Origin: Candidatus Lustribacter sp.
GTDB taxonomy: Bacteria > Vulcanimicrobiota > Vulcanimicrobiia > Vulcanimicrobiales > Vulcanimicrobiaceae
Length of the DNA stretch: 64,000 nt
Direction: 5' to 3'
Assembly: GCA_965277805.1 (NCBI GenBank)
Contig: OZ255842.1
Coordinates: forward strand, 2,432,001-2,496,000
Part shown: one piece after another, positions 800-58,912 of the stretch
Position numbering within the stretch: the first letter of the stretch is position 1
Layout: each line of letters starts with the position of its first letter
Made by a program: the position numbers and the translations under genes
Notes under the pieces: generated by a model
The model's database searches: none
What the model saw: the letters and a program-made list of their open reading frames with translations, nothing else
Told to the model about the DNA's origin: nothing

Positions 800-1750
800 A
801 TGCACCGGATCGACGTTCACAACCACATCTTCCCGACGCAATACCTCGCCGCGGCGAAGGCCAAGGGCAAGATCGGTGAGGTACTGTCCTCGCAGCCCGG
901 CATGATCGATTGGACGCCGGCGACGTCGCTCGAGGCGATGGACCGCAACGACGTGCAGAAAGCGATCACGTCGGTTTCAACGCCCGGCGTGTGGTGGGGC
1001 GATCTCGAGCTTGCGCGCACGCTCGCGCGCCAGTGCAACGAATTCTCGGCCGAGATGGCGCGCAATTACCCGAGCCGCTTCGGCTTCTTCGCGTCGCTGC
1101 CGCTGCCCGACGTCGAAGCGAGCCTGGCCGAGATCGCTTATGCGCTGGATGAGCTGGGCGCAACGGGCATTCTCTTGATGACGAGTTACGGCGATCGCTG
1201 GCCCGGCGACGTTGCGTTCGAACCGGTCTTTCGCGAGCTCAACCGGCGCAAAGCGACCGTGTTCTTTCACCCGACCGTGGCGGATTGCTGCCGCGGCCTG
1301 ATCCCCGACGTCGGGCCGTCGATGATCGAGTATCCGATGGACTCGACCCGCGCGATCGTGAGCCTCCTCACGAGCGGCACGTTCTCCGCGTGTCCCAACG
1401 TCAAATGCATCTTCTCGCACGGCGGCGGCGTGCTGCCGATGCTGGCCGCGCGCATCGCGCGCGTCGCCGACCGTTCGCCCGTGAGCGGCCCGCGCTTACC
1501 GCACGGTGCGATGCACGAGCTGCAGCAGCTGCGGTTCGACATCGCGTCGGCCACGAGCCCGCCGGCGCTCGACGCGCTGCTGCGCTTCGCGCCGATCGAG
1601 CACATCCTCTTCGGGAGCGATTTCCCCTATCAGGACTTCGAGTCGGCGATCGACGGTCTGCGCGACGGCGGCGTTACCGGCGCGCGCCTCGCGGCGATCG
1701 AATCGGGCAACATCCAGTCGCTGCTTACGCGTTCGGCGGCGTCCAGATGA
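800..1750 (+). CDS. Amidohydrolase-2 family protein (aromatic acid decarboxylase/ACMSD-like)
   Basis: IDVHNH metal motif, FFHP, SHGGG, LFGSDFPY. Confidence 0.88.
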   Translation: MHRIDVHNHIFPTQYLAAAKAKGKIGEVLSSQPGMIDWTPATSLEAMDRNDVQKAITSVSTPGVWWGDLELARTLARQCNEFSAEMARNYPSRFGFFASLPLPDVEASLAEIAYALDELGATGILLMTSYGDRWPGDVAFEPVFRELNRRKATVFFHPTVADCCRGLIPDVGPSMIEYPMDSTRAIVSLLTSGTFSACPNVKCIFSHGGGVLPMLAARIARVADRSPVSGPRLPHGAMHELQQLRFDIASATSPPALDALLRFAPIEHILFGSDFPYQDFESAIDGLRDGGVTGARLAAIESGNIQSLLTRSAASR

Positions 1751-2693
1751 CGTCGCTTGCCGGGAACGGTTTGAGATTGCCGTACTTCGCCATCACATTG
1801 ATCACCGGCTGAATCTCGCTCACGTCCACGCGCACGGCCTCGTCGTAGTGCGAACGTGCCATCGTGGCCATGACCTCGGGCGCGATCTTCGTGTAGCGCT
1901 GCAGAATGACGCCGGACTCTTTCTGATGGGTGTTCGCCCATTGCGCGCTGCGCTGCATTGCGACGAAGAAACGCCGGGCGGCCTCACCGTTGCGCGCGAG
2001 CCAGCCGCTCTCGGCGCACCAGCCGGAAAGCAGATAGTGATTTGATACCGCATCGTTGAGGTTGCCGGCGATTTGGGCCACGCCTTTCGCACCGGTGATG
2101 AACGGTTCGATGATGCCGACCGCGTCGACGCGGTTTTGCTCGAGTCCCACGGCCATCGCCGCATACGGCAACTCGACGAATTGCACGCTTTTGGAGTCGC
2201 CGCCGCCGCGGTCGATCCAGGCTTGAATGCTGTACGACGTCATGTCGTGCAAGCCGCCGACGCCGATCCGTTTGCCGTTGAAGTCGGCGCCCGAGCGCAG
2301 CGGAGAATTCTTGAGCACCATCAGCGCGGCGTTGACGACGGCGCCGGCATACACCACGCCGGTCGCGATGAACTTCATCGCGATGCCCTGCTGGTGCGCG
2401 AGCAACACGGGCCCGGGGCTGCCGCTGGCGATGTCGAGTGCCCCCGACGCGGTAGCGGCGATCACCGAGGCACCGTTGCCGAGCACCGTGAGCGTCACGT
2501 CGAGCCCGGCTTCTTTGAACATGCCGAGATCTTGCGCGTAGAAGCACTGCGCCGACGGATCGATCGGAATGCCGCCGACGCGTAACGGGATGAGATCCGC
2601 CGCGCGCCCCGCTTTGCGCGCTATCGTGCCCGCTGCAACGGTCGCGCCCAGACCCGCGATGACCGACGAGCGCCGAAGGTTCGGGCCGCTCAT
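1725..2693 (-). CDS. ABC-type solute-binding protein (SsuA/NMT1-like)
   Basis: RR-containing signal, GMFKEAGLDV, DFNGKRIGV, VDAV..IEPF; ATGA overlap with upstream Rieske gene. Confidence 0.85.
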   Translation of the reverse strand: MSGPNLRRSSVIAGLGATVAAGTIARKAGRAADLIPLRVGGIPIDPSAQCFYAQDLGMFKEAGLDVTLTVLGNGASVIAATASGALDIASGSPGPVLLAHQQGIAMKFIATGVVYAGAVVNAALMVLKNSPLRSGADFNGKRIGVGGLHDMTSYSIQAWIDRGGGDSKSVQFVELPYAAMAVGLEQNRVDAVGIIEPFITGAKGVAQIAGNLNDAVSNHYLLSGWCAESGWLARNGEAARRFFVAMQRSAQWANTHQKESGVILQRYTKIAPEVMATMARSHYDEAVRVDVSEIQPVINVMAKYGNLKPFPASDVIWTPPNA

Positions 2694-22959: not shown

Positions 22960-24201
22960 CTACGCTAGTACGGTGCCGCGGACTTCGCCGAAGTCGACGC
23001 GGTGCGGTCCGGTTCCGGCGACCGCGTGCAAGATCACGGTGTCGCCGTTCTCGAGGAATGCGCGCGTTTCGCCGGACGGTAACGAGACCGGGTTTGCGCC
23101 GCGCCAGCTCAACTCGAGAAAACTGCCGTAGGTGCCGGGCTCGCTGCCGGAAACGGTACCGGTACCGAACAGATCGCCGGCACGGACGCGCGAGCCGTTC
23201 GAGGTCATGTGCGCGAGTTGCTGGGCGACGTTCCAGTACATCTCGCGGAAGTTCGTATGGGAGATGACAGCGGGCGCGATGTTTTGCGCGCGCATCCGCT
23301 CGGTTTGCAGCAAAACCTCGAGCGCGATGTCGTAGGCGTAGTTCTCGCTTACGCGCAGATACGGGAGCGGCGCGGGGTCGAGGACGCGATTGGGGACGCG
23401 GAACGGTTCGAGCGCGTCGAGCGAGACGAGCCAGGGCGAAATCGACGTTGCGAATGACTTGCCGAGGAATGGGCCCAGCGGCACGTATTCCCACGCTTGA
23501 ATGTCGCGCGCGCTCCAGTCGTTGAGCACTACGTAGCCGTAAACGTGATCGCGCACGGCGTCAGCGGGAATCGATTCACCGAGCTTATTGCCGGGGCCGG
23601 TAATCCACGCCATCTCCAATTCGATATCGAGCATCTGCGTCGGGCCGAACATCGGTGCCGGCGCGTCGGGCGCTTTGCGTTGCCCGTGCGGACGGCGGAT
23701 CGGCGTATCGCTTACGACGACGGAACTTGCGCGGCCGTGATAGCCGATCGGGACGTAGCGGTAATTCGGCTGGAGCGGTTCGGTGCCCGGACGTAGGATT
23801 TTTCCCGCGTTCGTGGCGTGCTCGATGCCGGAGAAAAAGTCGACGTAATCTTGCACTTCGATGGGGAGCAACATCGTCGCCGCGCTGCGCGGCACAAGTG
23901 CGCGCATTACGGCTTCTCGTTCGTCCGACGTCGCGGCTTCGCCGAAGAGACGCTGCAGCGTCGCACGCAGCGAACGCCACGCACCGGGACCGTGCGCGAG
24001 AAATGCATTCAGGGTGCGTGCATCAAGCAGCGTTTCGTCATCGAGTAGGCGCTCGCGGATCAACGTCGACAGGTCGACGATCGATGGTCCGATCGCGACG
24101 CCCGGACGCGGAGCGTCGTCCGTGGTAAAGATACCAAGCGGCAGGTTCTCAATACCGAAGCCGCTGCCGTCCGCACCGTTAATCCAAGCTGACATCGCCA
24201 T
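22960..24201 (-). CDS. fahA: Fumarylacetoacetase
   Basis: FGIENLPLG, DYVDFFS..EHATN, GYHGRASS, NDWSARDIQAWEYVPLGPF. Confidence 0.95.
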   Translation of the reverse strand: MAMSAWINGADGSGFGIENLPLGIFTTDDAPRPGVAIGPSIVDLSTLIRERLLDDETLLDARTLNAFLAHGPGAWRSLRATLQRLFGEAATSDEREAVMRALVPRSAATMLLPIEVQDYVDFFSGIEHATNAGKILRPGTEPLQPNYRYVPIGYHGRASSVVVSDTPIRRPHGQRKAPDAPAPMFGPTQMLDIELEMAWITGPGNKLGESIPADAVRDHVYGYVVLNDWSARDIQAWEYVPLGPFLGKSFATSISPWLVSLDALEPFRVPNRVLDPAPLPYLRVSENYAYDIALEVLLQTERMRAQNIAPAVISHTNFREMYWNVAQQLAHMTSNGSRVRAGDLFGTGTVSGSEPGTYGSFLELSWRGANPVSLPSGETRAFLENGDTVILHAVAGTGPHRVDFGEVRGTVLA

Positions 24202-24221
24202 CGCGAATCGCCACCTCTAGG

Positions 24222-24253
24222 AATGAAAAGACCCCTCGCTTCCGAGGGATCTT
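24222..24253 (-). terminator. Intrinsic terminator after tRNA-Thr(GGT)
   Basis: AAGATCCCTCG-GAAG-CGAGGGGTCTT followed by TTCATT on minus strand. Confidence 0.6.
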
Positions 24254-24265
24254 CGTCAAGTGATC

Positions 24266-24340
24266 TGGAGCTGGCGGTCGGGATTGAACCGACGCTCTCG
24301 TCCTTACCAAGGACGTGCTTTACCACTAAGCTACGCCAGC
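24266..24340 (-). tRNA. tRNA-Thr(GGT)
   Basis: GCTGGCG..CGCCAGC-TCCA; anticodon loop TTGGTAA; no intron. Confidence 0.96.
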
Positions 24341-24822
24341 TCGTACTCGGCCGCCCACCGAATCTTTCGAGCCTGCCGGTTAAGGCACGGGGCCACGCGC
24401 AAATGCCCCTTAGTCGCGACCAGTTCGGACTCAGGGACGAGGTAAACCTTCCCATTGTCCGGGCAGAAGACGGCGAGATATTCGACTTGACCGAAATACG
24501 GCCGACTCGCGGTCGGTCCGGATCGGCGATGCTGATGGGAGCTACTGCATATAAAATCGATCACTCCGCCTCGCATGCGCCCCGTCTTCACCTGAATACG
24601 CAAGAGTTGAAGCCCGTCATCAGCGATCACATCATATCGATGATTTTCACCGAACGGTATCGACACAAGATAGCCAGCTCGAATGAGTGCCGAAATCACC
24701 ATCACTTCTGACAGATCACCGATCGCCTTCGTGTTTCGCTTTGGTTTCTCAGCACTTGGACCCGCCGCAATTGCGACTAGATTTTCGCCATCTTCCGGCG
24801 GGAACAAATACGAAACGCTCAT
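24331..24822 (-). CDS. Group I intron-associated-type PD-(D/E)XK endonuclease (PDDEXK_5/I-Ssp6803I-like), free-standing
   Basis: KAIGDLSE..V...L...GY.VSIPFGENHRYD..ADDG..L.RIQVKTGR, VYLVP; stop codon lies inside tRNA-Thr. Confidence 0.88.
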   Translation of the reverse strand: MSVSYLFPPEDGENLVAIAAGPSAEKPKRNTKAIGDLSEVMVISALIRAGYLVSIPFGENHRYDVIADDGLQLLRIQVKTGRMRGGVIDFICSSSHQHRRSGPTASRPYFGQVEYLAVFCPDNGKVYLVPESELVATKGHLRVAPCLNRQARKIRWAAEYELA

Positions 24823-24963
24823 TGCAAATATTCTCGCAAATTGCTGTGCCTACTGGTTGGCACTCACGCGGTGCAATAGCGCTTTTCGCGCTTAAAGGAG
24901 TCCGACGTACCGACCGACTAGACCCCACTAACGGAAGAAACCACTACCGGAGACGGGGTTCGC

Positions 24964-26916
24964 ATGGCAAAGAAAGATTCGGGCGGCGTTGACAGACGCG
25001 CGTTTTTAGGCGGAATCGGTGCTGCGGGAGCCGCCGCAGCGGCGGTGGCGGGAGTAAAACCCACACCGGCCGAGGCCAAACCCACGGCCCTGCCGCCCGT
25101 CTCCCAGTCGTATGCGACGACGATCGCGCAACTGGAGCAGGCGCCCCCGATCGATCACGGCCCCGGCGCCGATGCGCAGCACATCACGAATCCCGGCTCG
25201 GACTACATGGTCGACGTCTTGATGGCGCTCGGCTACAAGTACGTCGCCGCAACGCCCGGCACCACGTTCCGCGGACTCCAAGAATCGGTCATCAATTACG
25301 CCCAAGGCAAGATGGAGTGGCTCTCGTGCGCGCACGAAGAGATCTCCGGATCGATGGCCCACGGCTACGCCAAAGCGGCCGGTAAGCCCATGATCATCAT
25401 GGTGCACAACACCGTCGGCCTGCAGCACGCGTCGATGGCGATGTACAACTGCTGGGCCGACCGCGTGCCGATGCTGGTAATGCTCGGGAACTACGCCGAC
25501 GGCGCGCTGCGCTCGAGCGCCGCCGACTGGGATCACGCCATGCTCGACAACGCCGCGATGGTCCGCGGCTACATCAAGTACGACGAGCAGCCGGGATCGC
25601 TGCAGCACTACAAAGAGTCGATGCTGCGCGGACACGGCTTGATGATGACCGCACCGAGCGGCCCGATCGTCATGGTCTGCGATCAGACGCTGCAAGAAGA
25701 CACCGCGTCGCGCAAGCCGCAGCCGGCGATGCCGGCCTACGTTGCGGCAACGCAGCCGGCGCCCGATCCGGGCGCGATCAAACAGATTGCCCAGATGCTG
25801 GTTACGGCGAAGAATCCCGTCATCGTCGCCGATCGCGCGACGCGCTCGCAAGCCGACGTCCAGAATCTCGTCAAACTCGCCGAGGCGCTGCAAGTTCCGG
25901 TGATCGACAAGCTGGGCCGGATGAACTTCCCGACCACGCACTACCTCAACGGCGCGGGCGGCCTGACCGCCGAAGCCGACTTGATCCTCGCACTCGATCC
26001 CGGCGACTTGTCGAGTTACGTCGAGCGCCTGCCCGAGTCGATCGCGCGCAGCACGATTCGCACCGCGCGCCCGGATTGCAAAGTCATCTCGATCGACTCC
26101 GAATTGCTGGCCGACGCCGGAAACTTTCAGGATAAGCAGCGCTTCTATCAGGCCGACCTTCCGGTCGCCGCCGACTCCGCGACGACGTTGCCGTTCCTCA
26201 TCGAAGCGGTGAACAGCGCGATGTCGACCGCGCGCCGCAACGAGAACCCGCAACGCGAAGCGCGTCAGCGCGAAGCCTACTACATCAAGCGTCAGGCCGA
26301 CGCGGCCTACGCCGCGGTCGCCTGGGATTCGCAGCCGATCAGCGTCGCGCGCATGTGCATGGAGATCTGGAATCAGATCAAGGGCGACCCGTGGTCGGTC
26401 GTCTCGTCGACGGGCTTCCAGAGTAACTGGCCGGCGCGCCTGTGGGACTTCACCGATTACAGCCAATACCACGGCGGCTCGGGCGCCGCGGGCATCGGGT
26501 ACATCGGCGGCGCCGCGATCGGCTGCGCGCTCGCACATAAAGACAACGGCGGGGCCGTGTGCGTCAGCTTCCAAGGCGACGGCGACTTCATGATGGGCCC
26601 CGGCGCGATGTGGACCGCTGCGCATCACCGCATTCCGCTCTTGATGGTGATCCACAACAATCGCGCTTGGTACCAAGAAACGATGTCGGTCCAAATTCTC
26701 GCATCGCGGCGCGACCGTCATCCCGATCGCGGGCGCATCGGCACCGAGATCGTCGATCCGAACATCAACTACGCCAAGGTCGCGGAAGGCTTCGGCGTTT
26801 ACGCCGAGCCGCAGATCACGCATCCGGACCAGCTTGCACCGGCGATCGCACGGGCGCTCAAAGTGGTCAAGAGCGGTCATCCTGCGTTGCTCGACATCGT
26901 GTCGCAAGGGAGATGA
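24964..26916 (+). CDS. ThDP-dependent enzyme with twin-arginine signal peptide
   Basis: DRRAFLGG...AEA signal; CAHEE..MAHGYAK; GDGDFMM...HNN motif. Confidence 0.88.
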   Translation: MAKKDSGGVDRRAFLGGIGAAGAAAAAVAGVKPTPAEAKPTALPPVSQSYATTIAQLEQAPPIDHGPGADAQHITNPGSDYMVDVLMALGYKYVAATPGTTFRGLQESVINYAQGKMEWLSCAHEEISGSMAHGYAKAAGKPMIIMVHNTVGLQHASMAMYNCWADRVPMLVMLGNYADGALRSSAADWDHAMLDNAAMVRGYIKYDEQPGSLQHYKESMLRGHGLMMTAPSGPIVMVCDQTLQEDTASRKPQPAMPAYVAATQPAPDPGAIKQIAQMLVTAKNPVIVADRATRSQADVQNLVKLAEALQVPVIDKLGRMNFPTTHYLNGAGGLTAEADLILALDPGDLSSYVERLPESIARSTIRTARPDCKVISIDSELLADAGNFQDKQRFYQADLPVAADSATTLPFLIEAVNSAMSTARRNENPQREARQREAYYIKRQADAAYAAVAWDSQPISVARMCMEIWNQIKGDPWSVVSSTGFQSNWPARLWDFTDYSQYHGGSGAAGIGYIGGAAIGCALAHKDNGGAVCVSFQGDGDFMMGPGAMWTAAHHRIPLLMVIHNNRAWYQETMSVQILASRRDRHPDRGRIGTEIVDPNINYAKVAEGFGVYAEPQITHPDQLAPAIARALKVVKSGHPALLDIVSQGR

Positions 26917-56970: not shown

Positions 56971-57044
56971 TGGAGCGGGCGGCGGGAATCGAACCCGCGA
57001 CTCTTGCTTGGAAGGCAAGGGCATTACCATTATGCAACGCCCGC
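56971..57044 (-). tRNA. tRNA-Gly(TCC)
   Basis: GCGGGCG..CGCCCGC-TCCA; anticodon loop CTTCCAA. Confidence 0.96.
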
Positions 57045-57430
57045 ATACCCCTGGTCGTCCCATCATTTGTCCCAATTTGCAGCAACTTCCCGTCACTTCC
57101 CGGAATTGCAGGTTGGCGGAGCTAGGCGTTCTCTGCTAAGTAACGCCGATCAGGCGGATGCGGCGGTGCATCCTGCGATTGCACGTATGGGGGCAAGCCG
57201 ACGCGGTCCGGCACGCCGGCCCACGCGAAGCAACGGCGCGACGGGCCGGATGCCGTCCAGCGGGCGCGACGCAGCGGTCAGGTCGTAAACGGCCGTTCGG
57301 CGACATACCCAGAACGTAAAGCCGGCCGCCAGCGCGACGGGCGGGCGCCACAAAGTAGGCGACGAGACGTGCAAATGGTGCGCGATCGTGCGGACGATCG
57401 GCTACCAAGGCCAAAAGACCCTAGTATCGG

Positions 57431-58459
57431 TTAGAGGTGGGTCGGGACTCGAACGCCGGCAGCCTTCTGTGCCGCGTTGATGAATGTCGTGTCGATCAAT
57501 GTACCGATCGGTTGTTCCAGCGGTACGAGGCTGTAGAGGTGCCAGAAGCGCTGTGTTTCTTCCAACGATGCAACGTGGATTTGGCCGTATTCACCCGTGT
57601 ATGGCGGCGACGGTATGGCCGCGATGAGATCGGGCGCGAGGCCCGTCCATTTCGCCATGATGGCGATCATTTCGGGCGTCCATTTGCCGTTCGCATCGGC
57701 GATGAACTTGCACGCCCTGACGTAACCGGTCAAGAAGCGGCGAATCGCATCCGGCTTCGCCTTCAGCGTTTTGGCCGAGGCAGCCAGGAAGCTCTCTTGA
57801 TAGCTCGGATCGACATCGGTGATCGAGAGCCAGCGATGGCCGATCTTCTGCTGCTCGAGTTGCGTGACCGTCGGCTCGTAGGCTGCTTGCACGTCGTTCA
57901 CGTTGCGCAATGACGCAAGCCAATCGCCGGCCGTCGAGAAACGTTCGCTGAATGTCATGTCGGCCGGCGTCAGCGCGGCGTTCGTCATCAGATGACGCGC
58001 GAGATACCAGCCTTCACCGCCCGGCGTTGCGCCGTCGAAGTGTTTGCCGCGTAGATCGCGCGGCGCACGAATCGTCTTCGCGTCCCAATCCGATTGCTTC
58101 ACGACGAGCCAAACCGCCGGGTTCCAGCCCTTGTGACTCGAGTTCGACGACGCGATCAGCTTGGCGTCGAAGCCTTGCGCGAACTGGTTGAAGAAACCGG
58201 GGTTCGCCGAGATCGTCGCGACGTCGACGTCACCGCGCGCGAGCGATGGGATGATCGACTGGCTCGAACCGCTGTGAATGACGGCCTGCACGTTCACGCC
58301 GGCTTGCGCGAAGAAGCCCTTGTCGATGCCGACCATCACCGGCAGCGTGAAGATCAGCTGCGGGTTCATCAGCACTTTCACGACGGGCAGCGCCGGCGTT
58401 TGCGCCCCGCTCGAAAGCGGCAGCAACAGCAGCGCGAAAAGAAAAAGGACGGCCTTCAT
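57431..58459 (-). CDS. ABC solute-binding protein (SsuA/NMT1-like)
   Basis: Signal MKAVLFLFALL; DKGFFAQAGVNV, DLRGK, AYEP. Confidence 0.85.
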   Translation of the reverse strand: MKAVLFLFALLLLPLSSGAQTPALPVVKVLMNPQLIFTLPVMVGIDKGFFAQAGVNVQAVIHSGSSQSIIPSLARGDVDVATISANPGFFNQFAQGFDAKLIASSNSSHKGWNPAVWLVVKQSDWDAKTIRAPRDLRGKHFDGATPGGEGWYLARHLMTNAALTPADMTFSERFSTAGDWLASLRNVNDVQAAYEPTVTQLEQQKIGHRWLSITDVDPSYQESFLAASAKTLKAKPDAIRRFLTGYVRACKFIADANGKWTPEMIAIMAKWTGLAPDLIAAIPSPPYTGEYGQIHVASLEETQRFWHLYSLVPLEQPIGTLIDTTFINAAQKAAGVRVPTHL

Positions 58460-58534
58460 AACCAAGAGCCTTTCCCTCGCTCGTTTGCGTTCCTGTCCGA
58501 AGACGCGCGCCGCGGTAACGGCGCGCGCCCGGAC

Positions 58535-58623
58535 TGGTGGGCAGGGTTGGATTCGAACCAACGTACCGCGTTAAGCGGGCCAGGTTTACAGCCTGGTGCC
58601 TTTAACCACTCGACCACCTACCC
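58535..58623 (-). tRNA. tRNA-Tyr(GTA)
   Basis: GGGTAGG..CCTGCCC-ACCA; anticodon loop CTGTAAA; long variable arm. Confidence 0.95.
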
Positions 58624-58682
58624 ACGAGGTCGACCGCCTACAGTACGGCCCCCATCGAACCTGGTCCTACCCGCCACCGGCA

Positions 58683-58708
58683 TGTCATCCCGAACCCGTC
58701 GAGGGACA
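58683..58708. repeat. REP-like palindromic element (copy 2)
   Basis: TGTCATCCCGAACCCGTCGAGGGACA. Confidence 0.45.
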
Positions 58709-58744
58709 GCTGGTCTCGGTGAAAGAATTAGGTGGGGAACACAG

Positions 58745-58823
58745 GCCGACGTGGCACAGCGGCGACTGCACAGCTTTTGTAAAGCTGCATACAACACCGT
58801 GGGTTCGAGTCCCACCGTCGGCT
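58745..58823 (+). tRNA. Atypical tRNA-Thr(TGT): 11-nt variable loop, no encoded CCA
   Basis: GCCGACG/CGTCGGC acceptor; CAGCT-TTTGTAA-AGCTG anticodon arm; GTGGG-TTCGAGT-CCCAC T arm. Confidence 0.82.
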
Positions 58824-58912
58824 TATCCAGTCAACAAGGCGTCCGGTCATCGGCTGGACTCAATAATCGGTTCGTATGGCGCGAACAGTGTAGGGTCGGA
58901 GGACAAGACCTA

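What the first reader, a model, noticed from the sequence alone, without database searches (positions are those of the whole stretch)
24266..24822. Free-standing homing-type PD-(D/E)XK nuclease whose stop codon is inside tRNA-Thr(GGT)
Seen: the ORF ends ...YELA*, and its last 10 nt (G CTG GCG TAG) are nucleotides 1-10 of the same-strand tRNA. The tRNA has no intron. Established: this family includes I-Ssp6803I, encoded in a tRNA group I intron, and RNase P cleaves at tRNA position 1. Inference: an intron-less selfish nuclease inserted exactly at a tRNA 5' end. tRNA maturation would leave a non-stop mRNA for tmRNA tagging, limiting nuclease expression, and the empty tRNA 5' junction is the probable homing target.
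Basis: partly seen in the sequence, partly recalled or inferred. Interest (0 to 1): 0.72.

Follow-up and report, generated by a model that had tools for sequence, protein, structure and literature searches.

The report
Homing-type nuclease gene fused to tRNA-Thr
A small DNA-cutting enzyme gene of the selfish "homing" type sits directly in front of this bacterium's only tRNA-Thr(GGT) gene and borrows its stop codon from the tRNA, and relatives of this enzyme sit beside tRNA genes in many other bacteria and phages.

Summary
ORF 24331..24822(-), 163 aa, is an I-Ssp6803I-family nuclease (Pfam PF11645; top fold match PDB 2OST). Its TAG stop is nt 8-10 of tRNA-Thr(GGT) 24266..24340(-).

The gene is real and conserved:
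- dN/dS is 0.06-0.23.
- In 26 of 33 loci from relatives of the same bacterial family, the frame stops on the same tRNA triplet.
- In other genera the gene fills the spacer between tRNA-Gly(TCC) and tRNA-Thr(GGT). That spacer is only 3-18 nt at empty sites.
- Presence is patchy (91 of 296 family genomes), with frameshifted and deleted remnants.
- One genome holds two diverged copies, an HNH gene and an 11-nt tRNA 5' scar.

Distant PF11645 genes from at least six other phyla are also tRNA-linked (77 of 80 loci): beside a tRNA, beside an intron-bearing tRNA, or inside a tRNA intron.

My reading: an old, mostly vertically inherited, free-standing homing-type endonuclease lodged at a tRNA 5' end.

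The non-stop/tmRNA throttle is plausible but untested. It was already proposed for phage T4 SegB (PMC2330249). The stop-in-tRNA overlap also occurs for an ordinary gene in this genome. Earlier notes of this scan report the same kind of element on other DNA. Cleavage and homing were not shown.

The parts
24331..24822 (-). Free-standing PD-(D/E)XK nuclease gene, 163 aa, I-Ssp6803I family (PF11645). Core residues by alignment: P56, D64 (codon 24631-24633), Q77, K79, R142.
   Evidence: E 1.9e-31. (aligned to 2ost). (invariant columns in 57 sequences). (pLDDT 91.3; 2OST is the top fold match, TM 0.66/0.72). (dN/dS 0.06-0.23).
24266..24340 (-). tRNA-Thr(GGT), uninterrupted. It is the only copy in the genome.
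   Evidence: 72 bits. (one DNA match in G000). (one Thr-GGT among 47 tRNAs).
24331..24340 (-). 10-nt overlap. tRNA nt 1-10 supply the last base of Glu161, Leu162, Ala163 and the TAG stop (24331-24333 = tRNA nt 8-10).
   Evidence: The same geometry is found in 26 of 33 relatives' loci.
24221..24250 (-). Terminator-like hairpin (CCCTCG-GAAG-CGAGGG) followed by a U-rich run, about 15 nt after the tRNA 3' end. It would close a nuclease-tRNA transcription unit.
   Evidence: Read by eye from the sequence. The consensus scan did not list it.
24823..24963 (.). Intergenic region upstream of the nuclease gene, divergent from a TPP-enzyme gene. It is the presumed promoter region for nuclease plus tRNA. 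No promoter was identified.
   Evidence: (no sigma-70 consensus site). (no conserved third-position block inside the ORF 3' end that would suggest an internal promoter; a weak test).
56971..57044 (-). tRNA-Gly(TCC). In other genera of the family this is the immediate upstream neighbour of the nuclease/tRNA-Thr(GGT) pair. Here it lies 32 kb away.
   Evidence: for the arrangement in relatives.
58535..58623 (-). tRNA-Tyr(GTA), part of the ancestral Tyr-Gly-Thr(GGT) cluster.
58744..58824 (+). tRNA-Thr(TGT), divergent from the cluster as in relatives.

Best explanation
This is a free-standing (intron-less) member of the I-Ssp6803I family of PD-(D/E)XK homing endonucleases, resident at the 5' flank of the cell's single tRNA-Thr(GGT) gene.

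In the ancestor of this bacterial family the gene entered the few-nucleotide spacer between tRNA-Gly(TCC) and tRNA-Thr(GGT) of a Tyr-Gly-Thr tRNA operon. Since then it has mostly been handed down vertically. Where it survives it is kept functional by selection. It has been lost or broken by deletion and frameshift in about two thirds of genomes. Within at least one genus it has been exchanged or re-inserted.

It has no stop codon or terminator of its own. Its frame runs into the tRNA and ends on the near-invariant U8-A9-G10. In the window's genus a later rearrangement moved the nuclease-tRNA pair, as one unit, 32 kb away from tRNA-Gly and tRNA-Tyr.

Shown:
- gene identity and fold
- purifying selection
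- conserved junction
- empty and decayed alleles
- family-wide linkage to tRNA genes
- one tandem site with a tRNA scar

Inferred:
- The enzyme cuts tRNA-gene DNA, or the tRNA 5' junction, of alleles that lack it.
- The gene spreads by repair-mediated copying (intronless homing).
- It is co-transcribed with the tRNA, so RNase P cleavage at tRNA nt 1 removes its stop codon.

I regard the shared stop chiefly as a consequence of tight packing against a triplet that cannot mutate. Low, tmRNA-limited expression is a likely side effect, not a proven design.
For: Identity:
- PF11645 at 109 bits.
- AlphaFold model with pLDDT 91.3. The top four Foldseek hits are the four chains of I-Ssp6803I 2OST (E 7e-10, TM 0.66/0.72).
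- P56, D64, Q77, K79 and R142 are invariant in 57 sequences.

A real, selected gene: dN/dS is 0.06-0.23 in 10 pairs (an 11th pair had saturated dS).

Insertion site:
- In L008, L009, L010 and L012 the gene fills a 520-613 nt Gly-Thr spacer. At 11 empty sites that spacer is 3-18 nt.

Junction:
- The stop is at tRNA nt 8-10 in 26 of 33 relatives' loci.
- 12 of 18 long tails keep the frame at six different lengths.

Selfish-element signs:
- Present in 91 of 296 sampled family genomes and patchy within genera (g34 23/33, g41 26/80), with many truncated or frameshifted hits.
- A 177-nt remnant (L035) and a 25-nt 3' remnant flush to the tRNA (L028).
- G281 carries copy A, then exactly tRNA nt 1-11, then an HNH ORF (PF01844, 22.9 bits), then copy B, then the tRNA. 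The two copies are 56% identical.
- The two g34 nuclease lineages disagree with the tree of the flanking gene.

Family-wide tRNA linkage:
- 67 of 80 distant loci have a tRNA within 250 nt, and 53 of these face its 5' end.
- 10 more are beside an intron-bearing tRNA-Asp, tRNA-Asn or tRNA-Thr (one locus, L072, was called Thr-TGT).
- L041, L043, L044 and L045 are inside a roughly 650-nt tRNA intron.
- All 4 phage contexts examined have a tRNA close by.
- Background expectation is 0.6%.

Precedents: I-Ssp6803I targets a tRNA-fMet gene (PMC1995217 passages). T4 SegB is a free-standing endonuclease in a tRNA cluster that recognises a tRNA motif (PMC2330249 abstract).
Against: - No cleavage, homing or transcript data exist.
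- At genus level the nuclease tree follows the host exactly (11 label changes for 12 genera, the minimum possible). No transfer between genera is seen, and long-term vertical descent with purifying selection also fits a domesticated gene.
- The within-genus incongruence rests on one flanking gene and 10 loci. An old tandem followed by differential loss could also explain it.
- It is unclear how the resident tRNA escapes cutting. A D-arm variant that looked linked to occupied sites (22 of 38 against 0 of 15) proved common in nuclease-free genomes too (56 of 115 carriers).
- 7 of 33 relatives' loci do not use the tRNA stop.
- An ordinary glycosyltransferase gene in the same genome also ends inside a tRNA.
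- The 80 distant loci are the best 80 of 193 found with a single peptide pattern, and many are close kin (34 are one Actinomycetota arrangement). The number of independent associations is therefore far below 77.
Confidence: 0.7

Rival explanations
1. The shared stop codon is a selected throttle. The nuclease mRNA is part of the tRNA precursor. RNase P cuts at tRNA nt 1 and removes Leu-Ala-stop. Ribosomes then stall on the non-stop mRNA and tmRNA-SmpB tags the protein for decay, so only the rare transcripts translated before processing give active enzyme. It is compatible with the best explanation and differs only in calling the overlap an adaptation.
For: - The geometry is conserved in 26 of 33 relatives' loci and over six tail lengths.
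- It recurs with tRNA-Thr(TGT) in Actinomycetota and tRNA-Gly(CCC) in an Acidobacteriota genome (12 of 80 loci).
- The tRNA is single-copy, so the region must be transcribed through.
- There is no conserved third-position block that would mark an internal promoter (a weak test).
- The host has RNase P RNA (256 bits), tmRNA (120 bits) and SmpB (185 bits).
- In the window, tRNA nt 2-4 encode the Leu of the family's conserved C-terminal Y-E-L motif.
- The same control was proposed for T4 SegB and for T5 F-TflI and F-TflII (PMC2330249 Discussion).
Against: - No transcript ends were measured.
- 7 of 33 family loci, and several distant ones (L122, L141, L145), have their own stop or another frame.
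- Two of the three frames end within the first 23 nt of a typical tRNA, so running into a tRNA gives a stop by default.
- Frame +2 of the tails is nearly as open as the coding frame (stops in 5 of 18 against 4 of 18 loci).
- A glycosyltransferase gene does the same thing at tRNA-Ser.
- Most distant homologues are arranged so that no stop is shared (34 are divergent from their tRNA).
Confidence: 0.25
2. This is a domesticated host gene. A former homing endonuclease is now kept for a cellular role (for instance defence, or repair at the tRNA locus), and its place beside the tRNA is a frozen accident.
For: - The nuclease tree follows host genera with the minimum possible number of changes.
- dN/dS is 0.06-0.23.
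- There is one copy per genome.
- In the window's genus the pair moved together and stayed intact.
Against: - Not found in about two thirds of sampled family genomes, including near-complete ones, with frameshifted and deleted remnants.
- The linkage to tRNA genes holds across phyla, for five or more tRNA species, and in phage tRNA clusters.
- G281 shows tandem diverged copies with an HNH gene and a tRNA scar.
- Members in the same phylum are encoded inside tRNA introns.
Confidence: 0.15
3. The mobile unit is nuclease plus tRNA. The element carries its own tRNA-Thr(GGT) copy and overwrites the resident gene from a break inside the tRNA, so the target is the tRNA body and not the empty Gly-Thr junction.
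For: - In G281 the first copy is followed by exactly tRNA nt 1-11 and then foreign DNA. The joint therefore lies inside the tRNA.
- L059 and L067 have nucleases 82% identical but tRNAs that differ at many positions.
- In G002 the frame runs past a 9-nt look-alike of the tRNA 5' end into unrelated DNA.
- I-Ssp6803I and SegB both recognise tRNA-gene sequence.
- Earlier scan notes describe such cassettes in phages (untested here).
Against: - There is one scar in one genome. A scan of the 35 family loci (L161 among them) with a motif for tRNA nt 1-11 found an extra same-strand copy only in L161.
- The tRNA is the only Thr-GGT gene, and its acceptor stem follows the genus.
- The D-arm allele test was weak.
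Confidence: 0.3
4. The ORF is a chance open frame in GC-rich DNA that happens to end in the tRNA.
For: Mechanical ORFs of 100 aa or more end in 9 of 47 tRNAs of this genome. 5 of the 6 others tested have no Pfam hit.
Against: - Pfam E-value 1.9e-31.
- 3,410 homologous clusters.
- dN/dS 0.06-0.23.
- A confident fold.
Confidence: 0.01

Closest known systems
I-Ssp6803I (Synechocystis PCC 6803; PDB 2OST; Pfam PF11645)
   Same: Same protein family and fold, with D and Q-x-K aligned. Both are tied to a tRNA gene. I-Ssp6803I is encoded in the group I intron of tRNA-fMet (PMC1995217 passages).
   Different: There is no intron here. The gene lies in front of an intact tRNA-Thr(GGT) and shares its stop with it. 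Sequence identity is only about 20%. Activity was not tested.
Phage T4 SegB (free-standing GIY-YIG homing endonuclease in the T4 tRNA gene cluster; PMC2330249)
   Same: A free-standing endonuclease gene among co-oriented tRNA genes. It recognises a tRNA motif and is inherited together with the neighbouring tRNAs (abstract). The authors propose that tRNA maturation cuts between its last codon and its stop codon, lowering expression (Discussion).
   Different: A different nuclease fold (GIY-YIG), and a phage not a bacterial chromosome. Homing is shown by crosses for SegB and not shown here. Here the stop lies 8-10 nt inside the tRNA.
[quoted passage not shown]
   Same: Endonuclease ORFs in a tRNA gene cluster for which lowered expression through transcript processing was suggested (named in PMC2330249 Discussion and reference list). 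A PF11645 homologue in the T5-like phage My1 overlaps tRNA-Ile by 7 nt as annotated.
   Different: I did not see the T5 paper itself (Akulenko et al. 2004 is not held). These are phage genes, and the scan's earlier notes describe them as HNH-type.
Collaborative (trans) homing and intronless homing of free-standing endonucleases (review PMC3984707)
   Same: The review describes free-standing endonucleases whose target is an intron insertion site next to an ORF-less intron, and intronless homing (passages). PF11645 shows all three states: inside a tRNA intron (L041, L043-L045), about 14 nt in front of an intron-bearing tRNA-Asp or tRNA-Asn (L071 and others), and in front of an intron-less tRNA (this window).
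   Different: The documented cases are phage protein-coding genes. For these tRNA cases nothing has been tested.
CDS-t(m)RNA gene overlaps predicted to give non-stop mRNAs (Hudson, Lau and Williams 2014, PMC4131195)
   Same: A same-orientation CDS upstream of, and overlapping, a valid tRNA. The paper counts 250 such cases among 115,660 t(m)RNA genes and notes that they are few events confined to close relatives.
   Different: That survey does not mention homing endonucleases (0 occurrences of 'homing'). Its top case is ftsW with tRNA-Ile in Helicobacter.

Membership tests
PF11645 / I-Ssp6803I-like PD-(D/E)XK nucleases | Matches the Pfam model above its gathering score | tested here: met
   109.3 bits against a cut-off of 26.1, covering model positions 2-137 of 138.
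PF11645 / I-Ssp6803I-like PD-(D/E)XK nucleases | Fold like the solved structure 2OST | tested here: met
   Model pLDDT 91.3. Foldseek ranks 1-4 are 2ost chains B, A, C and D, with E 7e-10 and TM 0.66/0.72.
PF11645 / I-Ssp6803I-like PD-(D/E)XK nucleases | Catalytic core residues (Asp, and Gln-x-Lys in place of (D/E)-x-K) conserved | tested here: met
   YD and QVK align with 2ost. P56, D64, Q77, K79 and R142 are invariant in 57 sequences and in 35 distant representatives. Calling these residues catalytic rests on alignment and on recall, not on an assay.
PF11645 / I-Ssp6803I-like PD-(D/E)XK nucleases | Site-specific double-strand DNA cleavage of a long target | not testable with these tools
   PMC3424549 lists a 17-bp target for the family's type member. 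There is no assay here.
Intron-encoded homing endonuclease (the I-Ssp6803I arrangement) | [quoted passage not shown] | tested here: not met
   The tRNA matches the Rfam model end to end without an insert. No Intron_gpI hit at E<=1 in 24100-25100. That arrangement does exist in L041, L043, L044 and L045 of the same phylum.
Homing endonuclease gene (functional class) | Occupied and empty alleles of one defined site among relatives | tested here: met
   The Gly-Thr spacer is 3-18 nt at 11 loci and 520-613 nt when occupied. Four of the 11 empty loci are from unpublished genomes.
Homing endonuclease gene (functional class) | Decay of copies (the degeneration phase of the homing cycle) | tested here: met
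   Frameshift in L011. Remnants in L013, L014, L035 and L028. Many truncated hits.
Homing endonuclease gene (functional class) | Spread independent of host descent | tested here: inconclusive
   Strictly by genus. Within genus g34 the two lineages disagree with the flanking gene, and one genome has both in tandem with a tRNA scar.
Homing endonuclease gene (functional class) | Enzyme cuts the allele that lacks it | not testable with these tools
   Needs an in vitro or in vivo assay.
Free-standing endonucleases of tRNA gene clusters (SegB type) | ORF lies between co-oriented tRNA genes of one cluster | tested here: met
   Tyr-Gly-[nuclease]-Thr in L008, L009, L010, L012, L047, L051, L060, L065 and L070. 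In the window only the downstream tRNA remains adjacent.
Free-standing endonucleases of tRNA gene clusters (SegB type) | GIY-YIG catalytic domain (homology to SegB) | tested here: not met
   The only Pfam hit is PF11645. The likeness to SegB is in lifestyle, not descent.
CDS-tRNA overlaps giving non-stop mRNA | Same-strand CDS whose stop lies inside a valid tRNA | tested here: met
CDS-tRNA overlaps giving non-stop mRNA | Co-transcription, and RNase P cleavage that removes the stop | not testable with these tools
   No RNA run holds the locus. The host has RNase P RNA, tmRNA and SmpB.

The most novel reading that the evidence does not exclude
PF11645 as a whole is a homing-endonuclease family dedicated to tRNA genes. 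It survives in three natural states: encoded inside a tRNA group I intron, free-standing in front of an intron-bearing tRNA, and free-standing in front of an intron-less tRNA. Together these form a living series for how mobile tRNA introns arise. In the free-standing forms that run into the tRNA, RNase P processing and tmRNA act as a built-in throttle that has let a DNA-cutting selfish gene persist for a family's lifetime inside an essential tRNA operon of bacterial chromosomes.
Probability: 0.25. Interest if true: 0.75.

Novelty: new variant of a known kind. Interest (0 to 1): 0.5.

Why it matters
Free-standing homing endonucleases in tRNA clusters are textbook for phages T4 and T5, and I-Ssp6803I is known only as an intron passenger.

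This case shows the same enzyme family living without an intron on bacterial chromosomes, in front of an essential single-copy tRNA. It has been conserved across a whole bacterial family. Relatives in at least six other phyla and in phages are attached to other tRNA genes.

If the enzymes do cut tRNA-gene DNA, three things follow:
- The family would offer a set of natural, long-target nucleases aimed at highly conserved sequences.
- It would give a natural test bed for the origin of mobile tRNA introns, since the three states occur within one family.
- It would give a simple chromosomal system for testing whether tRNA processing and trans-translation limit expression of a toxic gene. That idea was raised for SegB in 2008 and, as far as my searches show, has not been tested in bacteria.

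My literature searches found no paper describing the tRNA linkage of PF11645 beyond I-Ssp6803I.

Tried and rejected
1. RNA evidence. No RNA holder was listed for 24150-25000. The four runs laid were contigs of DNA or unknown kind, and they say nothing about transcripts.

2. Group I intron remnant around the ORF: none at E<=1.

3. Sigma-70 consensus promoter in 24000-25100: none, against 0.4 expected by chance. The organism may use other promoter forms.

4. NCBIfam: no family for the protein.

5. tRNA D-arm immunity idea.
- A coordinated 13-22-46 variant (U-A-A in place of C-G-G) appeared in 22 of 38 occupied or ex-occupied loci and in 0 of 15 empty or other loci.
- A pattern search of the same 401 genomes found it in 115 genomes, 56 of them without a nuclease hit.
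- Within genera the link is weak: g41 21/26 against 27/54, g34 12/23 against 1/10, and not significant in nine other genera.
- Rejected as evidence and kept only as a lead.

6. Internal promoter test. Third-codon conservation in the last 120 nt of 13 flush-type genes is 0.52-0.62, with no conserved block. This is weak, because synonymous sites are saturated.

7. ARAGORN found no tmRNA in G000. Rfam did, so the ARAGORN blank was a miss.

8. Integrative-island reading. No integrase is present, the insert is a single gene, and it lies on the tRNA 5' side. Rejected.

9. The 35-sequence alignment A1 was too diverse for the search for related loci. I used the 8-sequence A2 instead, which restricts the survey to the R[VI]QCKTGR[LIF] subgroup.

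10. The I-Ssp6803I activity paper (PMC3008403) is not held. Statements on its target come from PMC1995217, PMC3424549 and a title in the reference list of PMC3984707.

11. Complex prediction, the metagenome scan and the viral-contig scans were not used.
Full report
OBSERVATION

The minus-strand ORF 24331..24822 encodes 163 aa ending AAEYELA*. ARAGORN and Rfam place tRNA-Thr(GGT) at 24266..24340 on the same strand, uninterrupted, at 72 bits. The two overlap by 10 nt, and the TAG stop is tRNA nt 8-10. The protein matches Pfam PF11645 (PDDEXK_5) at E 1.9e-31. It matches PDB 2OST weakly by sequence. NCBIfam has no model for it.

IS THE OVERLAP MORE THAN CHANCE?

Not by itself. U8-A9-G10 reads TAG, and the D-loop often supplies TAA or TAG near nt 21-23. 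A frame that enters a tRNA therefore stops early in two of the three phases.

In this GC-rich genome, mechanical ORFs of 100 aa or more end within the first 25 nt of 9 of 47 tRNAs. I tested 6 of the other 8 against Pfam. Five had no hit. One is a real GT2 glycosyltransferase gene ending at nt 23 of tRNA-Ser(TGA).

What sets the nuclease case apart is the evidence below.

A REAL GENE UNDER SELECTION

- The genome holds one PF11645 copy.
- A whole-library search found 3,410 homologous clusters at E<=1e-3.
- Ten pairwise comparisons among orthologues give dN/dS of 0.06-0.23. An eleventh pair had saturated dS.
- In an alignment of 57 sequences, P56, D64, Q77, K79 and R142 are invariant. The same five columns are invariant in 35 distant representatives.
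- An AlphaFold model built on that alignment has mean pLDDT 91.3. Its four best Foldseek matches in the PDB are the four chains of I-Ssp6803I (2OST; E 7e-10; TM 0.66/0.72). Weaker matches follow: SPARDA nuclease domains, Hjc resolvases and restriction enzymes.

CONTEXT IN RELATIVES

With P0001 as query, 13 of 41 related genomes (G000 included) have a match. All 7 other genomes of the genus do, as do 5 of 17 other genera of the family. None of the 16 genomes of two neighbouring families do.

Every copy lies just upstream of tRNA-Thr(GGT). The strand is the same in every case except the remnant L013.

In other genera (L008, L009, L010, L012) the gene fills the spacer between tRNA-Gly(TCC) and tRNA-Thr(GGT) of a Tyr-Gly-Thr cluster. 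In family genomes without the gene, that spacer is only 3-18 nt in 11 loci: L017, L018, L019, L023, L025, L027, L030, L031, L033, L034 and L037. Four of these (L017, L031, L033, L037) are from unpublished genomes. The spacer is 58 nt in L032 and 177 nt in L035. L035 still reads KRNTKGVG..VSIPF and so is a remnant.

In the window, tRNA-Gly, tRNA-Tyr and tRNA-Thr(TGT) lie at 56971-58824. In this genus, therefore, the nuclease-tRNA pair has moved away from them as one unit. tRNA-Thr(GGT) is single-copy in G000.

THE JUNCTION IS CONSERVED

There are 33 distinct relatives' loci with a nuclease match and a same-strand downstream tRNA-Thr(GGT). In 26 of them the frame of the last matched segment stops at tRNA nt 8-10. 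These 26 are 24 intact genes, the frameshifted L011 and the remnant L014.

Seven do not:
- L012, L062 and L064 have their own stop 43-49 nt before the tRNA.
- In L070 the stop ends 1 nt before the tRNA.
- L059 and L068 are in another frame and read through the tRNA.
- L054 is the upstream copy of a tandem pair.

Three loci were left out of this count: L006 (no tRNA found), L013 (tRNA on the other strand) and L050 (contig end).

Two forms exist. In the window's genus and in genus g34 the conserved C-terminus is flush with the tRNA. Elsewhere a 65-83 nt tail intervenes. Twelve of 18 long tails keep the frame, at six different lengths. The tail carries a loosely conserved vVG...GV motif.

The tail frames are less telling than they look. 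Stops occur in the coding frame in 4 of 18 loci, in frame +1 in 16 of 18, and in frame +2 in 5 of 18.

DISTRIBUTION AND DECAY

A Pfam-model search of 401 genomes of the phylum found matches in 96. Of these, 91 are among 296 genomes of the window's family. Presence is patchy within genera (g34 23/33, g41 26/80, g44 6/9, g49 4/12, g50 7/18, g52 5/6). Many hits are truncated, frameshifted or stop-containing.

G047 (genus g34) has no Pfam hit. It keeps about 25 nt of the gene's 3' end (IRWAHRSG|LA*) flush with the tRNA, so here absence is loss by deletion.

Contigs from one environmental sample contain both the intact allele and the decayed G005-type junction.

VERTICAL OR HORIZONTAL?

A maximum-likelihood tree of 31 nuclease proteins groups them exactly by host genus. 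It needs 11 label changes for 12 genera, which is the minimum possible. No transfer between genera is visible.

Within genus g34 there are two deep lineages. G281 carries both in tandem, 56% identical. Its layout is:
- copy A, ending FELA*
- exactly tRNA nt 1-11
- unrelated DNA with a 138-aa ORF that has an HNH domain (PF01844, 22.9 bits against a cut-off of 21.4)
- copy B, ending YELA*
- the intact tRNA

Among the 35 family loci scanned (L161 included), only L161 has such an extra same-strand copy of the 11-mer.

A tree of the flanking host gene for 10 g34 loci does not separate the two nuclease lineages. Well-supported branches force at least two changes of each label. This fits exchange or re-insertion within the genus. 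It also fits an old tandem with differential loss.

A second tandem (G166, L054) has copies 56% identical. The tRNA-proximal copy has lost conserved residues.

THE WIDER FAMILY

A scan of one genome per species with the peptide pattern R[VI]QCKTGR[LIF] confirmed 193 places, and the best 80 were returned. By their record titles they come from Actinomycetota, Burkholderiales, Planctomycetota, Armatimonadota families, Acidobacteriota, Ktedonobacteraceae and Beggiatoaceae.

ARAGORN finds a tRNA within 250 nt of the nuclease domain in 67 of the 80. These 67 are among only 73 tRNAs in the 403 kb fetched:
- 34 have tRNA-Thr(TGT) divergent from the ORF, 26-111 nt upstream.
- 14 have tRNA-Thr(TGT) directly downstream on the same strand.
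- 5 have tRNA-Gly(CCC) downstream on the same strand.
- 6 have tRNA-Thr(TGT) upstream on the same strand.
- 3 have tRNA-Ala(GGC) convergent with the ORF.
- 2 have tRNA-Asn(GTT) upstream.
- 3 have other arrangements.

In 53 of the 67 the nuclease faces the tRNA 5' end. The stop falls at tRNA nt 8-10 in 12 loci. Eleven of these are with Thr-TGT, counting two where ARAGORN set the tRNA start one base early. One (L134) is with Gly-CCC.

Of the 13 loci without an adjacent tRNA:
- Seven have an Rfam group I intron core starting 20-45 nt after the ORF. With introns allowed, ARAGORN reads these as an intron-bearing tRNA beginning about 14 nt after the stop. Six are tRNA-Asp(GTC), and one (L072) is called Thr-TGT.
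- L088, L102 and L112 are read likewise (tRNA-Asp, tRNA-Asn) by ARAGORN alone.

That gives 77 of 80. L075 (contig end), L081 and L138 are left over.

In the window's own phylum, the best Pfam scorers L041, L043, L044 and L045 lie inside a 649-654 nt intron of a tRNA (Rfam support for L045 only). This is the canonical I-Ssp6803I state. L042 was not scanned for introns.

In phages, 46 records have a match. I looked at four contexts:
- My1 overlaps tRNA-Ile.
- River4 abuts tRNA-Pro.
- SM5 lies 23 nt after a tRNA-Met.
- EFP01 has an unannotated tRNA 139 nt downstream.

A random 500-nt segment of G000 lies beside a tRNA 0.6% of the time. Many of the 80 loci are close kin, so the independent events are the distinct tRNA species and arrangements. 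There are about eight to ten of these, not 77.

MECHANISM

The best-supported reading is a free-standing homing-type endonuclease whose niche is the flank of a tRNA gene. This matches T4 SegB (PMC2330249, abstract read) and the intronless and collaborative homing schemes reviewed in PMC3984707 (passages).

Co-transcription with the tRNA is inferred from several points:
- The two genes overlap.
- Almost no untranscribed room exists between tRNA-Gly and the ORF in the cluster forms.
- The tRNA is single-copy.
- A terminator-like hairpin follows the tRNA (seen by eye).
- No conserved third-position block lies in the ORF's last 120 nt (a weak test).

If so, RNase P cleavage at nt 1 removes Leu-Ala-stop and leaves a non-stop mRNA. 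The host has RNase P RNA, tmRNA and SmpB.

This idea is not new:
- Hudson et al. list 250 same-orientation CDS-upstream overlaps among 115,660 t(m)RNA genes as candidate non-stop sources (section read in passages).

The exceptions, the ordinary gene, and the many family members with other orientations point the same way. I rate the overlap as mainly a packing by-product whose consequence is probably low expression.

The homing target is unknown. The G281 scar places one recombination joint inside the tRNA, after nt 11.

A D-arm 13-22-46 variant that seemed tied to occupied sites did not hold up on 401 genomes.

COMPARISON AND NOVELTY

Known:
- I-Ssp6803I in a tRNA-fMet intron (PMC1995217).
- PF11645 as a patchily distributed group, with HGT suggested (PMC3424549).
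- Free-standing endonucleases in phage tRNA clusters, and the processing-throttle idea (PMC2330249).

Earlier notes of this scan report the same kind of element on other DNA, including free-standing I-Ssp6803I relatives at tRNA genes. Those are unchecked AI notes, and my survey was done before I read them.

Not found in print by my searches:
- the chromosomal, family-wide, mostly vertical lineage at tRNA-Thr(GGT)
- the cross-phylum tRNA linkage of PF11645 in three states

I class this as a new variant of a known kind.

CLAIMS THAT REST PARTLY ON UNPUBLISHED GENOMES

- Four of the 11 empty sites (L017, L031, L033, L037).
- Two of the 26 copies that stop in the tRNA, which are also rows of the tree (L053, L065).
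- The genome tallies (G366, G265, G252).

Noticed in passing
L161 (G281:C21:32500-36800), minus strand, 1391-2905: Pile-up at one tRNA 5' end: PDDEXK_5 copy A, then an exact copy of tRNA-Thr(GGT) nt 1-11, then a 138-aa ORF with an HNH domain, then PDDEXK_5 copy B, then the tRNA. The two nuclease copies are 56% identical.
   Followed up: yes
L071, L073, L076, L077, L078, L084, L088 (tRNA-Asp GTC); L102, L112 (tRNA-Asn GTT); L072: In Burkholderiales and some other genomes the free-standing nuclease gene ends about 14 nt before a tRNA that itself carries a 189-311 nt group I intron in the anticodon loop. This layout is like 'collaborative homing'. Seven have Rfam intron support. Three rest on ARAGORN alone.
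   Followed up: partly
L041, L043, L044, L045 (same phylum as the window): These PF11645 genes lie inside a 649-654 nt intron of a tRNA, the canonical I-Ssp6803I arrangement. ARAGORN's anticodon calls differ between loci (Met, Ser, Leu) and are not reliable.
   Followed up: partly
L156:143-1141 (G000:C1:2855742-2856740, minus strand; outside the window): A 332-aa GT2 glycosyltransferase ORF (PF00535, E 8.5e-18) ends at nt 23 of tRNA-Ser(TGA). This is an ordinary gene that also takes its stop from a tRNA.
   Followed up: partly
window 57434-58459 (-): A gene for an NMT1/THI5-like periplasmic binding protein with a signal peptide lies between tRNA-Tyr (58535-58623) and tRNA-Gly (56971-57044). 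In relatives these two tRNAs are 3-20 nt apart.
   Followed up: partly
L038 (G013), Gly-Thr spacer 1561-2216, minus strand: A 656-nt spacer with no PF11645 match holds an open frame of about 190 aa with a signal-peptide-like start. A different gene occupies the same tRNA spacer.
   Followed up: no
tRNA-Thr(GGT) nt 13, 22, 46 in family loci (window 24266-24340 carries the variant): There are two tRNA alleles, C13-G22-G46 and U13-A22-A46 (the tertiary base triple). They segregate within genera. The variant is in 115 of 401 genomes and is only weakly enriched where the nuclease is present.
   Followed up: yes
L006 (G002:C4:100019-103498): The nuclease frame runs past GTTGGTTAG, a 9-nt look-alike of the tRNA 5' end, into unrelated DNA for 43 more codons. 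No tRNA was found within 1.5 kb. This is a possible second breakpoint inside the tRNA. The genome is 79% complete.
   Followed up: partly
L013 / L022 (G020:C4): A nuclease remnant (residues 62-126, one TAG) lies about 125 nt from tRNA-Thr(GGT) on the opposite strand, pointing towards the tRNA 3' end. This suggests a local inversion.
   Followed up: no
window 24266-24345, runs X2-X4: In the sample that holds the window's sequence, other contigs join the same tRNA to the decayed G005-type junction at several-fold higher depth. Intact and decayed alleles therefore coexist in one community.
   Followed up: partly
L158 (Enterococcus phage EFP01, KY549443.1), 1756-1827 and 2127-2713: An unannotated tRNA and a ROOL RNA (265 bits) lie just downstream of the phage's PF11645-like gene.
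   Followed up: no
L049 (G218) and L058 (G221): About 1.1 kb (L049) and about 0.4 kb (L058) of extra DNA lie between tRNA-Gly and the nuclease gene. These are further insertions into the same spacer.
   Followed up: no
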